From positions 7,238-71,237 of the forward strand of contig JAFVUD010000002.1 of NCBI GenBank assembly GCA_017502865.1: a DNA stretch of 64,000 nucleotides, read 5' to 3'. Both the position numbers and the translations under genes were made by a program. Under the pieces are notes generated by a model. That model worked only from the letters and a program-made list of their open reading frames with translations. It had not been told where the DNA came from and did not search any database. Shown here in pieces: positions 1,563-55,129 of this stretch (within the stretch, counting starts at the first letter, position 1; the number at the start of each line of letters is the position of its first letter). Source of the stretch: Alphaproteobacteria bacterium (GTDB taxonomy: Bacteria > Pseudomonadota > Alphaproteobacteria > Rs-D84).

Positions 1563-1639
1563 GCGAGCGTAGCTCAGTTGGCTAGAGCGCAACCTTGCCA
1601 AGGTTGAGGTCGAGGGTTCGAGCCCCTTTGCTCGCACCA
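1563..1639 (+). tRNA. tRNA-Gly(GCC)
   Basis: Cloverleaf GCGAGCG..caacc-tt-GCC-aa-ggttg..GGTTCGAG..CCA. Confidence 0.97.
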
Positions 1640-1777
1640 GAATTTACCACCCGAATGGGTGGTTTTTTATTAACCAAAGGGGCGAGAACCCGCAGGGTTG
1701 CGAGGCGAGACGGCACCGCCGGCGAAGTACTTTGCGGTGCACCAGTATTTACCACCCGAAAGGGTGGTTTTTTATTA
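1626..1777 (+). repeat. tRNA-linked direct repeat (tRNA-Gly 3' end + terminator duplicated)
   Basis: ctttgctcgcaccagaatttaccacccgaatgggtggttttttatta (1626-1672) vs ctttgcggtgcaccagtatttaccacccgaaagggtggttttttatta (1730-1777). Confidence 0.85.
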
Positions 1778-38754: not shown

Positions 38755-38982
38755 TTTTTGGGTTCTCGTCCGGTGCCCCATTGCCAAAATAAAAAACCAC
38801 CATGCGGTGGTTTCTTATTTGTGGTGGGGACACAGGGACTGTAAATTCCCATGGTCGTTTACACTCCATGGGCCCCTTTCGCTTCGCCCCGAACCCTTTT
38901 TGGGTTCTCGTCCGGTGCCCCATTGCCAAAATAAAAAACCACCATGCGGTGGTTTCTTATTTGTGGTGGGGACACAGGGACT
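38755..38982 (-). repeat. 86-bp perfect direct repeat containing tRNA-Lys 3' end, with 56-bp spacer
   Basis: 38755-38840 identical to 38897-38982. Confidence 0.92.
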
Positions 38983-39039
38983 CGAACCCTGGACCCAATG
39001 ATTAAAAGTCATTTGCTCTACCAACTGAGCTATGTCCCC
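38964..39039 (-). tRNA. tRNA-Lys(TTT)
   Basis: GGGGACA..aatga-ct-TTT-aa-tcatt..GGTTCGAG..TGTCCCCACCA. Confidence 0.97.
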
Positions 39040-54235: not shown

Positions 54236-54313
54236 GGCGGATATAGCTCAGTTGGTTAGAGCGTTGGTTTGTGGTACCAAATGTCGCCGGTTCGAGTCCG
54301 GTTATCCGCCCCA
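54236..54313 (+). tRNA. tRNA-His(GTG) with G-1:C73
   Basis: G-GCGGATA..ttggt-tt-GTG-gt-accaa..TATCCGC-C-CCA. Confidence 0.96.
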
Positions 54314-54518
54314 TTATAAAACGTCCCTGTTGGGGCGTTTTTTAATTTTGGGCGGTTCGGACGAGAGCCGCAGGTTCGGAACGTCAGTTGGCGAGAACGA
54401 GCATTGGCGAAGTTCAAGCCTTACGTAGTGAAAGGGGCCCATGGAGAGAAACGACCATGGGAATATACAGTCCGGTTATCCGCCCCATTATAAAACGTCC
54501 CAATCGGGGCGTTTTTTA
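54295..54518 (+). repeat. tRNA-His 3' end + terminator duplicated around a 124-bp spacer
   Basis: agtccggttatccgccccattataaaacgtccc....ggggcgtttttta at 54295-54344 and 54469-54518. Confidence 0.9.
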
Positions 54519-54625
54519 TTGAAAAATTTGGTGGTTTGTGGTATAATACCTGGGTTCAGCGGACGACATTTGGTCGTCTTTTTTATTGCCCGCAATTGCG
54601 GGTGTTTTTTATGGAGATTTTTATT

Positions 54626-55129
54626 ATGAAATTTAGTGAGAATGGTATTAAATGGTTAAAAAAATTGGAAGATTCCGTCGTGGTTCGTGAAAGACACATT
54701 ATCTATGATGATGCCACAGGTAAACCGGTGCCGGTGGGGGTGCCATTGCCGGTGGGTGCAACAATTGGTTATGGGCATTTGATAAAACCGGGTGAAGATT
54801 TTAAAAGCGGAATTACAGAACACCAGGCGGTTGAATTATTACGGTCTGACATAGCCACAGCAGAACGTGCGGTACAAGACAATATTACAGCACAAATGTC
54901 GCAAAACCAATATGATGCACTGGTATCTTTGGCATACAACATTGGTGTGGGTGGTTTTAAAAATTCTACGGTTGTGAAATATATAAACAATCCAAATTTT
55001 CACAGTAATATTTATCCATGTCTGGAATCTGCATGGAAAGCGTGGAAACGAAGCCAGGGGAAAGTATCACAGGGTTTAATCAACCGCAGACAAAAAGAGT
55101 GGGACCTGTATGCCCGGGGGATATACTGA
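54626..55129 (+). CDS. Phage-type lysozyme (GH24)
   Basis: FSENGI..LK.LE, IYDD, TIGYGH, QNQYDALVSLAYNIG, GLINRR..E. Confidence 0.9.
   Translation: MKFSENGIKWLKKLEDSVVVRERHIIYDDATGKPVPVGVPLPVGATIGYGHLIKPGEDFKSGITEHQAVELLRSDIATAERAVQDNITAQMSQNQYDALVSLAYNIGVGGFKNSTVVKYINNPNFHSNIYPCLESAWKAWKRSQGKVSQGLINRRQKEWDLYARGIY

What the first reader, a model, noticed from the sequence alone, without database searches (positions are those of the whole stretch)
1563..1777. tRNA-linked mini-element carrying an antisense copy of its own tRNA T-arm (tRNA-Gly copy)
Seen: after tRNA-Gly and its terminator comes caaaggggc-GA-gaaccc. This is the reverse complement of the tRNA's own T-arm (caaaggggc-TC-gaaccc) with TC changed to GA. 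It is followed by a hairpin aaccc-gca-gggtt, a ggcgaag motif, and a second tRNA 3' end plus terminator. The same layout, with the same TC>GA change but a tRNA-specific antisense sequence, recurs behind tRNA-Lys (ggggcaccggac-GA-gaaccc) and tRNA-His (gggcggttcggac-GA-gagccg). Known: tRNA-linked repeats such as E. coli tyrT/rtT and integrase att duplications exist, but I know of no described form with a target-specific antisense segment plus shared scaffold. Inference: either a non-autonomous tRNA-targeting element with a variable target-complementary segment, or a cis-RNA that refolds pre-tRNA.
Basis: partly seen in the sequence, partly recalled or inferred. Interest (0 to 1): 0.75.

Follow-up and report, generated by a model that had tools for sequence, protein, structure and literature searches.

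The report
tRNA-matched foldback insertion elements
Behind many tRNA genes of these small-genome gut bacteria sits a gene-less, folded insertion unit carrying both an antisense and a spare sense copy of that tRNA's tail; no such unit was found described in the catalogues and papers searched, and how it moves or works is still open.

Summary
Window 1675-1691 is the reverse complement of tRNA-Gly 1614-1630 in 15 of 17 bases; the only changes are TC to GA. The layout recurs behind tRNA-Lys and tRNA-His.

It is one case of a large family set in Enterousia-group gut Alphaproteobacteria. A covariance model of the Lys/His type hits 7 elements in this genome and 99 of 151 genomes of the order, behind at least 20 tRNA isoacceptors.

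Each unit holds:
- a replacement tRNA 3' end with its own terminator
- an arm antisense to tRNA nt ~49-70
- a sense copy of the T-arm 5' half
- a conserved folded core placed between T-loop nt 57 and 58

The displaced 3' end and a terminator follow. Helices covary.

The Gly copy belongs to a different, smaller core family that shares only this chassis. No Rfam match, promoter or ORF was found inside. No HUH, TnpB or IS110 enzyme is found where searched, and integrases are not linked to the core.

Sites are filled, empty or hold other core types in sister species.

Best reading (0.42): a non-autonomous, target-matched insertion element acting as a folded single strand. Main rival: a functional structured RNA.

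Unchecked earlier notes of this scan describe look-alike elements in CPR bacteria, DPANN archaea and actinobacteria.

The parts
1563..1639 (+). tRNA-Gly(GCC), the intact target gene
   Evidence: ARAGORN; Rfam tRNA 65.9 bits
1646..1669 (+). First intrinsic terminator (proximal, belongs to the unit)
   Evidence: 7-pair stem followed by a T run
1675..1691 (+). Antisense arm: reverse complement of tRNA-Gly 1614-1630, with TC changed to GA at the bases facing T-loop nt 57 and 58
   Evidence: 15 of 17 identical
1687..1699 (+). Hairpin P(a): the end of the antisense arm pairs with a sense copy of the T-stem 5' half. It is missing in 7 of 16 relatives.
1700..1729 (+). Gly-type core: invariant purine-rich box, variable hairpin (1709-1723), invariant box
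   Evidence: Alignment A3. Hairpin: 4 of 5 pairs with compensatory changes.
1730..1744 (+). Second copy of the tRNA-Gly 3' end (from nt 63 to CCA), mutated at about 4 positions in this genome
1751..1773 (+). Second terminator
38964..39039 (-). tRNA-Lys(UUU)
38822..38926 (-). Type-1 element. Antisense arm 38921-38902 with GA at 38909-38908; sense T-arm half 38896-38890; core 38889-38841; tRNA 3' copy 38840-38822.
   Evidence: Model R1, 85 bits, E 1.5e-26 (genome coordinates minus 7237); sequence
38755..38821 (-). Partial second unit: terminator plus antisense arm up to the hairpin loop. Together with 38840-38822 it is an exact 85-nt repeat of 38982-38897.
54237..54313 (+). tRNA-His(GUG)
54346..54487 (+). 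Type-1 element, long form. Antisense arm 54350-54369 with GA at 54363-54364; sense T-arm half 54373-54378; about 50-nt extra domain 54379-54429; core boxes 54430-54440 and 54459-54468 around hairpin 54438-54461; tRNA 3' copy 54469-54487.
   Evidence: Model R1, 61.3 bits, E 3.7e-18; sequence
54488..54520 (+). Distal terminator after the displaced tRNA-His 3' end
   Evidence: hairpin and T run read by eye; not listed by the scan

Best explanation
The stretch is one somewhat decayed copy of a non-coding, non-autonomous insertion unit that targets tRNA genes in Enterousia-group gut Alphaproteobacteria.

Read from the T-loop of the live tRNA, a unit consists of:
1. A replacement tRNA 3' end (from nt 58; from nt 63 in the Gly family) with its own terminator, so the tRNA stays intact.
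2. An arm antisense to tRNA nt ~49-70.
3. A short hairpin loop that can hold extra hairpins or cargo.
4. A sense copy of the T-stem 5' half and the start of the T-loop.
5. A conserved folded core.

Behind the unit lies the displaced older 3' end with its terminator.

On the tRNA-sense strand the antisense arm can pair with both sense pieces. This rebuilds a double-stranded image of the tRNA gene's T-arm and acceptor region, and the core branches out exactly between nt 57 and 58. The TC to GA change places tandem G-A mismatches at that branch.

I infer that this folded single strand (DNA, or read-through RNA) is the active form. A trans-acting enzyme, from the host or a helper, would use it to insert the unit into the matching tRNA gene. 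Repeated insertion next to the tRNA would build arrays and push older units downstream.

Shown: anatomy, covariation, distribution, turnover, and the lack of any gene of the unit's own. Inferred: the single-stranded intermediate, the enzyme, and the direction of the reaction.
For: Anatomy
- It recurs behind about 11 of 44 tRNAs of this genome: 9 true repeats of the 3' end, plus Gly-GCC and Arg-ACG read.
- It is seen in 98 distinct elements from about 100 loci.

Structure
- 91.2% of 1991 cells pair, against 24-47% when partners are slid. 18 of 22 pairs have compensatory changes. The alignment is model-fitted, which favours the structure.
- The hand-built set of 26 gives 90.4% against 22-47%.
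- The Gly family gives 96.9% against 30-51%.

Junction
- The core always abuts A58 (93 of 98).
- The arm bases facing nt 58 and 57 are G (69 of 98) and A (77 of 98) instead of U and C.
- tRNA-Thr(GGU) elements copy that tRNA's unusual T-loop.

Mobility
- tRNA-Gly sites are filled in 15 and empty in 5 of 20 loci fetched; L191 (filled) and L198 (empty) are orthologous.
- The tRNA-Tyr sites of 29 species (sorted by eye) hold type-1 cores in 5, type-2 cores in 12, another type in 2, an island start in 3, nothing in 7 and an arm remnant only in 1. One locus holds both type 1 and type 2.
- Identical 25-nt core hairpins sit with 11 and with 9 different tRNA fragments.
- Tandem arrays occur.
- One unit carries about 650 nt with a 120-aa ORF in the hairpin loop.
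- Across three species the unit, including its proximal terminator, is 92-97% identical. The distal terminator is 76-83% identical and the flanks 69-82%.

No enzyme or expression signal of its own
- No ORF and no promoter inside.
- Every one of 61 genomes has at least two tyrosine recombinases, of Xer-like size.
- ComEC and DprA, which import single-stranded DNA, are kept in this 0.9-Mb genome.
Against: - No enzyme is identified.
- The T-loop region does not resemble a dif site, and no clear dif was found (that motif was recalled, not from a tool).
- Phage-type integrases of the genus are not next to the core: 0 model hits in 11 integrase loci.
- Strand asymmetry is only moderate: G-U 61 cells against A-C 40.
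- The distal part of the antisense arm is poorly matched in several tRNA types (Pro, Ser-GGA, Ser-UGA, Leu-CAA).
- No free circular or single-stranded form was seen.
- The higher conservation of units than of flanks could equally be purifying selection on a functional RNA.
- How a unit acquires arms for a new tRNA is unexplained.
Confidence: 0.42

Rival explanations
1. The units are genes for a structured RNA. Two forms are possible: a small self-cleaving or self-ligating ribozyme acting at the nt 57|58 branch, or a processed small RNA that uses the tRNA-like helix and CCA end for processing and stability. In either case the RNA is kept because it serves the host or itself at the RNA level, and the duplication of the tRNA end is only how it got there.
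For: - Covarying helices surround nearly invariant unpaired boxes.
- Tetraloops of the GNRA kind and tandem G-A motifs flank the helices (read by eye).
- One closing pair is A-U in 77 and G-U in 18 of 98 elements.
- Units at the same tRNA are 92-95% identical between species whose flanks are 69-82% identical, in 4 of 5 pairs.
- Every unit ends in a terminator.
Against: - There is no promoter inside, and a strong intrinsic terminator stands directly upstream of every unit.
- No Rfam family matches, including all catalogued self-cleaving ribozymes.
- At least five unrelated core types occupy the same slot, which fits cassettes better than one enzyme.
- The proximal terminator, which need not keep its sequence, is as conserved as the core. 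That points to young copies rather than to selection.
- Many genomes and many tRNAs lack a unit.
Confidence: 0.27
2. Ordinary double-stranded attachment-site scars. The units would be minimal remnants (cis-mobilisable elements) of islands integrated by tyrosine integrases with a T-loop crossover, with incidental hairpins.
For: - The tRNA 3' end is repeated directly, starting in the T-loop, and the units accrete in tandem.
- Classical islands exist in this clade. Integrases of 360-460 aa lie next to tRNA-Arg(UCU) and tRNA-Met.
- A 2.1-kb island at tRNA-Met ends in a 14-nt tRNA fragment.
Against: - 0 model hits in 11 integrase loci.
- This genome has only two Xer-sized recombinases (genome 78% complete).
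- At least 20 different tRNAs are used, whereas one integrase normally uses one.
- Compensatory changes in the hairpins and a conserved mismatch pair at the branch are not expected of double-stranded sites or of decaying scars.
- Known att sites carry no antisense arm (recalled).
Confidence: 0.12
3. Miniature derivatives of single-strand transposons (IS200/IS605-type PATEs or REP-like elements), moved by a Y1 HUH enzyme that reads hairpins and a short guide and inserts 3' of the T-loop tetranucleotide.
For: - Sub-terminal hairpins lie on one strand, with a short tail before the junction.
- The insertion point is fixed after the same T-loop bases.
- The unit contains a segment complementary to the target.
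Against: - A Y1 transposase is found in 1 of 101 genomes of the genus and TnpB in 2 of 101, both marginal. The elements are in 90 of 107 genomes of the genus.
- These transposons make no target duplication (recalled), whereas here the tRNA end is duplicated.
Confidence: 0.06
4. The units encode a guide RNA for an RNA-guided recombinase (bridge or seek RNA of the IS110/IS1111 kind) supplied in trans.
For: A folded non-coding RNA-like core lies next to a segment complementary to the target and a segment identical to it.
Against: - No DEDD IS110 transposase in this genome (genome 78% complete; the genus was not searched).
- No promoter.
- The complementary arm pairs within the unit itself.
Confidence: 0.04

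Closest known systems
Integrative elements and cis-mobilisable elements at tRNA/tmRNA genes (tyrosine integrases, T-loop crossover class)
   Same: Insertion into the 3' part of a tRNA gene. The unit brings a replacement 3' end, the old end is displaced as a direct repeat, and units accrete in tandem.
   Different: No integrase in or beside the units. At least 20 tRNA targets are used. Each unit has an antisense arm, a sense T-arm half and a covarying core that branches from T-loop nt 57|58. The whole unit is 75-175 nt.
CTX-phi and other Xer-dependent integrating elements (folded single-stranded attP)
   Same: Works like (inferred): a single strand folds so that two inverted copies rebuild the double-stranded target site, with a mismatched centre. 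Host recombinases do the work, copies integrate in tandem, and the element needs no enzyme gene.
   Different: The target is a tRNA T-arm, not dif. No filamentous phage genes are present. The single-stranded form and the role of Xer are not shown.
Integron attC sites and cassette arrays
   Same: Imperfect palindromes whose structure rather than sequence is kept on one strand. Cassettes, some with one small ORF, are strung next to a fixed entry point.
   Different: The entry point is a tRNA gene. No integron integrase or R/L boxes were recognised. The arms copy the target.
IS200/IS605 miniature elements (PATEs) and REP/RAYT
   Same: Strand-specific hairpins, a fixed cleavage point a few bases from a hairpin, and an internal guide complementary to the target.
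   Different: The HUH enzyme is missing in 100 of 101 genomes. The complementary segment is 12-28 nt rather than 4-5 nt. The target end is duplicated.
E. coli tyrT-rtT repeats (recalled, not tested)
   Same: Repeats behind a tRNA gene that each end in a copy of the tRNA's 3' end.
   Different: As far as I recall, there is no antisense arm, no folded conserved core and no spread over many tRNAs.
Archaeal T-loop tRNA introns (lead from earlier scan note e1-2564914, not tested here)
   Same: A folded insert at almost the same T-loop position.
   Different: Here the insert sits in a spare partial tRNA copy, not in the working tRNA. Bacteria lack the splicing endonuclease (recalled).

Membership tests
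tRNA-targeting integrative element / CIME | Direct repeat of the tRNA 3' end flanks the insert, with the identity block starting in a tRNA loop | tested here: met
   the repeat starts at A58 in 93 of 98 type-1 elements
tRNA-targeting integrative element / CIME | A tyrosine or serine integrase lies in the element or in a helper element sharing the same att sequences | tested here: not met
   0 model hits in 11 integrase loci.: only two Xer-sized recombinases in this genome (78% complete).
Rfam RNA families, including hammerhead, hairpin, twister, pistol, hatchet and HDV-like ribozymes | Covariance-model match at the gathering score | tested here: not met
   only 4 tRNAs in 64 kb.: nothing but tRNA below E 0.2 on the His unit.
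IS200/IS605 PATE or REP/RAYT | A Y1 HUH transposase is present in the genomes that carry the repeats | tested here: not met
   1 of 101 genomes.: elements in 90 of 107 genomes of the genus.
IS200/IS605 PATE or REP/RAYT | Insertion 3' of a fixed short target, with no target duplication | tested here: inconclusive
   The insertion point is fixed after T-loop nt 57, but the tRNA end is duplicated.
IS110/IS1111 with bridge or seek RNA | A DEDD recombinase gene | tested here: not met
   none in this genome. The genus was not searched.
TnpB/IscB guide-RNA (omega RNA) ends | A TnpB-type nuclease gene | tested here: not met
   2 of 101 genomes, one below the cut-off
Xer-dependent integrating element (IMEX) | Host XerC/XerD are present | tested here: met
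   61 of 61 genomes have at least two tyrosine recombinases of about 290-340 aa
Xer-dependent integrating element (IMEX) | Integration at dif, with dif-like half-sites in the element | tested here: not met
   The target is a tRNA T-loop. The scan with a recalled dif motif found no convincing site.
Xer-dependent integrating element (IMEX) | A single-stranded folded form is the substrate | not testable with these tools
   Only the foldability and covariation of one strand are shown.
Integron cassette / attC | An integron integrase and conserved R and L boxes | not tested
   No IntI-specific search was run.

The most novel reading that the evidence does not exclude
A class of mobile element without any gene. 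Each copy carries an antisense and a sense copy of its target tRNA's 3' part, so its single strand folds into an image of the target gene. A small conserved nucleic-acid core sits at T-loop nt 57|58. The core is either itself catalytic or a handle for a universal host enzyme, and drives insertion there. The same design would have arisen or spread in reduced-genome lineages as far apart as gut Alphaproteobacteria, CPR bacteria and DPANN archaea; those other lineages are known only from unchecked scan notes.
Probability: 0.3. Interest if true: 0.9.

Novelty: categorically new. Interest (0 to 1): 0.78.

Why it matters
- It would add a kind of mobile or structured element that needs no gene of its own and is 'programmed' by copying its target. 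This bears on how tRNA genes become universal landing pads, and on how far nucleic-acid-guided insertion reaches beyond CRISPR-linked transposons, bridge RNAs and group II introns.
- The units are abundant in 0.9-Mb genomes that have shed almost all other mobile DNA: 1-16 per genome, behind about a quarter of the tRNAs here. They are therefore either very efficient parasites or useful.
- The small conserved core (about 50 nt) with a fixed junction is directly testable in vitro for cleavage, ligation or protein binding.

Tried and rejected
- **Rfam**, at gathering scores and at E up to 10 on the His unit: only tRNAs.
- **Hammerhead and hairpin-ribozyme likeness**, judged by eye from recalled consensus: local G-A/helix/G-A modules resemble them, but the defining core bases are not met. 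No model match.
- **Viral contigs** scan with the core pattern: 0.
- **Hits outside the clade.** About 20 genome contigs pattern hits fall in unrelated phyla without tRNA context. About 100 such hits are expected by chance from my own estimate, so I treat them as chance.
- **Duplex-energy test** of arm against own versus foreign tRNA fragment: small difference, poor discriminator.
- **Reads**. Only contigs of 2 RNA-library and 2 DNA runs could be laid. They show no transcript ends, and the depth at tRNAs is inflated by other organisms. One RNA-library contig and two DNA contigs show shorter forms at the Lys locus, but with sides of 30 letters or fewer and under 95% likeness. No conclusion drawn.
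- **dif search** with a recalled motif: one weak candidate, not used.
- **AbiP2-type reverse transcriptase**: a defence gene, not linked to the units.
- **Integrase next to a unit in G004**. The unit there is a chimera: Lys arm, His fragment and His flank. It arose by recombination between units, and the integrase belongs to a separate island cut in the anticodon arm.
- **Literature**, four searches. I saw only titles and the starts of abstracts. None describes such elements. No paper was opened and no supplement was seen.
- **Scan index by sequence**: nothing.

Full report
**Observation**

The window holds four tRNA genes. tRNA-Gly(GCC) lies at 1563-1639 and is followed by a terminator hairpin at 1646-1663. 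Next, at 1675-1691, comes a 17-mer that is the reverse complement of tRNA positions 1614-1630. Such a match is expected about 2e-5 times in 300 nt.

After that come a small hairpin (1687-1699), a purine-rich box, a second hairpin, a copy of the tRNA's last 15 nt (1730-1744, mutated at about 4 positions) and a second terminator at 1751-1768.

The same order of parts follows tRNA-Lys (minus strand) and tRNA-His. There the antisense match is gapped and, taken alone, weak.

**The thing is a large family**

The window lies in a 0.89-Mb, 6-contig assembly that is 78% complete, with 44 tRNAs and a permuted tmRNA.

- Ten tRNAs have a second copy of their last 14 nt within 400 nt downstream. One of these (Ala-CGC) is simply the next tRNA.
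- With Gly-GCC (mutated copy) and Arg-ACG (split over two contig ends), about 11 of 44 tRNAs carry such a unit.
- An exact pattern from the Lys/His core occurs in 9 of 41 relatives, own genome included, all in one genus. The reversed control pattern occurs in none.
- In the species collection the pattern gives 123 or more stretches. Nearly all real ones are in 'Candidatus Enterousia' or unnamed gut Alphaproteobacteria MAGs.
- A covariance model built from 26 hand-checked units finds 7 units in this genome (8 hits, one unit being split).
- The model also finds units in 99 of 151 genomes of the order. By group: 96 of 121 in the family (90 of 107 in the genus), 2 of 3 in a second family, and 0 of 26 in the other four families sampled. 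Copy number is 1-16 per genome.
- Of 98 distinct units, 78 have a same-strand tRNA within 500 nt upstream. Ten of the other 20 had too little flank. Twenty isoacceptor types are used.

**Anatomy**

Comparing units gives one plan. In order:
1. The intact tRNA.
2. A terminator.
3. An arm that is the reverse complement of tRNA nt about 49 to 62-72.
4. A short loop.
5. A sense copy of the T-stem 5' half and the first T-loop bases (nt 49-57/58).
6. A core.
7. A sense copy of the tRNA from A58 to CCA.
8. A terminator.

In the arm, the bases that would face A58 and G57 are G (69 of 98) and A (77 of 98) instead of U and C. About a tenth of units keep the unmodified bases.

Units behind tRNA-Thr(GGU) reproduce that tRNA's unusual T-loop in both arm and sense copy. 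The arm base facing position 59 follows the tRNA.

Its distal, acceptor-facing part is often degenerate, however.

**Fold**

On the tRNA-sense strand the arm can pair with the sense T-arm half (helix P(a)) and with the 3' copy (helix H1). The core then emerges between nt 57 and 58, flanked by two G-A mismatches: a three-way junction.

The core of the common type has a small hairpin, which is expanded by about 50 nt in the 'long form' as at tRNA-His. It also has a nearly invariant purine-rich box, a variable hairpin with an invariant three-pair base, and an invariant tail ending two bases before A58.

| Set | Cells paired | When partners are slid | Compensatory changes |
|---|---|---|---|
| 26 hand-aligned units | 90.4% | 22-47% | 7 of 22 pairs |
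| 98 distinct model-aligned units | 91.2% | 24-47% | 18 of 22 pairs, 242 cells |

The model-fitted alignment favours the structure.

G-U cells (61) outnumber A-C cells (40), which is only a moderate strand signal. The G-A branch pairs and the purine-rich loops also fit the sense strand better.

**The Gly element is a different core on the same chassis**

The model of the Lys/His type does not hit it. Fifteen of 20 tRNA-Gly(GCC) loci fetched from the genus carry the Gly type, and five are empty. One of the 15 (L185) is cut off before the core hairpin and was not aligned.

In 16 aligned copies from 15 genomes (the window plus 14 relatives), the boxes are invariant. The variable hairpin has compensatory changes in 4 of 5 pairs, with 96.9% of cells paired against 30-51% when slid. 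The P(a) hairpin is missing in 7 of the 16, and the junction with the tRNA copy is at nt 62|63.

The copy in the window is a variant with a mutated 3' copy. Two relatives keep the unmodified TC in the arm.

Further core types with the same chassis follow tRNA-Cys, tRNA-Pro(UGG) and tRNA-Gln(UUG) in this genome.

**Turnover**

- At tRNA-Gly, L191 (filled) and L198 (empty) share their downstream flank.
- At tRNA-Tyr, I sorted 29 species with readable downstream sequence by eye. Five hold the common core (one truncated into a chimera). Twelve hold a second core type on what is often the very same arm. Two hold a third type. Three hold the start of a larger island. Seven hold nothing. One holds an arm remnant only. 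One locus carries both the common and the second type.
- Identical 25-nt core hairpins are joined to 11 and to 9 different tRNA fragments, in short and long forms.
- Arrays of two or more units occur.
- The last unit is often followed by a partial one, cut at varying points in the arm.
- One unit holds about 650 nt with a 120-aa ORF inside the P(a) loop.
- In G004 a unit has a Lys arm but a His fragment and His flank, so units recombine with each other.
- Between three species the Ser-GGA unit is 92-96% identical and its proximal terminator 95-97%. The distal terminator is 76-83% identical and the flanks 69-82%. In 4 of 5 pairs units are better kept than flanks.
- The unit, with its own copy of the tRNA end and its terminator, therefore behaves as one young or constrained block. 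The distal fragment and terminator look like the host's older end.

**What could move it**

There is no ORF and no sigma-70-like promoter inside the units, and a strong terminator precedes each.

- This genome has two Xer-sized tyrosine recombinases.
- It has no IS110 transposase and no Y1 HUH enzyme.
- It has one reverse transcriptase, of the AbiP2 defence kind.
- In the genus, a Y1 enzyme is present in 1 of 101 genomes and TnpB in 2 of 101, marginally.
- All 61 genomes searched have at least two tyrosine recombinases, and many have extra integrases of 360-460 aa.
- Eleven integrase loci show no core. Where a tRNA lies beside the integrase, the arrangement is that of a classical island.
- ComEC and DprA are present. 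They are common in bacteria, so this is weak support for a single-stranded DNA entry route.

**Reading**

The conserved branch mismatches, the covarying helices, the fixed junction and the target-copying arms argue that a folded single strand is what matters. The absence of a promoter, the many interchangeable cores, the site polymorphism and the co-conserved proximal terminator argue for an insertion element rather than a host RNA gene.

The closest working analogy is the folded single-stranded attachment site of CTX-phi and the attC sites of integrons. In both, a strand folds into an image of a recombination site and host-type tyrosine recombinases act on it. Membership in those families is not met: the target is not dif, and no integron integrase was recognised.

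I put 0.42 on a non-autonomous, target-matched insertion element that acts as a folded single strand. I put 0.27 on a functional structured RNA or ribozyme, 0.12 on ordinary integrase scars, and about 0.1 on HUH-type or bridge-RNA-type systems.

**Relation to earlier notes of this scan**

Word look-ups show that other agents reported small gene-less elements with an antisense and a sense copy of the tRNA 3' end around a core in the T-loop. They were found in Patescibacteria, Woesearchaeota and actinobacteria. These are unchecked AI notes on other DNA, and I did not test them. My core pattern found none of those phyla, so any relation is one of design, not of sequence.

**Limits**

- Expression could not be judged, because only contigs were available.
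- No paper was read beyond search listings, and no supplements were seen.
- Comparisons with hammerhead, hairpin ribozyme, tyrT-rtT, dif and IS608 rest on recall.

Noticed in passing
L249:1611-1645 (= G000 contig 6, right after tRNA-Gly(UCC)); also after tRNA-Leu(UAA), Val(GAC) and Pro(GGG), plus dispersed copies on contigs 2, 5 and 6: A second repeat family. A roughly 30-nt motif starts directly at the CCA end, and its stem includes the CCA. The stem covaries between tRNAs. Reverse-oriented dispersed copies occur away from tRNAs.
   Followed up: no
L187, L193, L018, L191: A third module type is inserted between the CCA and the terminator. It is about 100 nt long and is bounded by a short direct repeat of the A/T-rich bases after the CCA.
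   Followed up: no
L201:910-2376 (-): A 488-aa reverse transcriptase of the AbiP2 defence class (E 6e-157). It lies beside an SRA-like domain protein in a 0.9-Mb genome.
   Followed up: partly
L202:600-2720 (G000 contig 6, 99900-102010): A 2.1-kb A+T-rich island sits behind a tRNA-Met gene and ends in a 14-nt copy of the tRNA end. It carries three opposite-strand ORFs (357, 109 and 67 aa) and has no integrase and no core.
   Followed up: partly
L204:3270-3700 (-): Chimeric unit with a tRNA-Lys antisense arm and a tRNA-His 3' fragment and flank. It lies next to a tRNA-Lys copy that starts in the anticodon arm, and to a 382-aa integrase gene. This is evidence that units mediate rearrangements between tRNA loci.
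   Followed up: partly
L029/L030 merged, positions 698-1063 of the minus-strand read: A 120-aa ORF of unknown family is carried as cargo inside the hairpin loop of a unit behind tRNA-Pro(GGG).
   Followed up: no
window 54519-54604 (+): A strong promoter-like site (11 of 12, with TG) lies right after the His unit. It is followed by two terminator-like hairpins before the ORF that starts near 54627. This is a possible leader or attenuator.
   Followed up: no
L270, L271, L274; distal parts of L266 and L277; left end of the cargo unit: A conserved left-end module recurs at the start of larger insertions behind tRNA-Tyr and tRNA-Pro. It consists of a terminator plus an A/T-rich stretch with repeated T-loop-like palindromes.
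   Followed up: no
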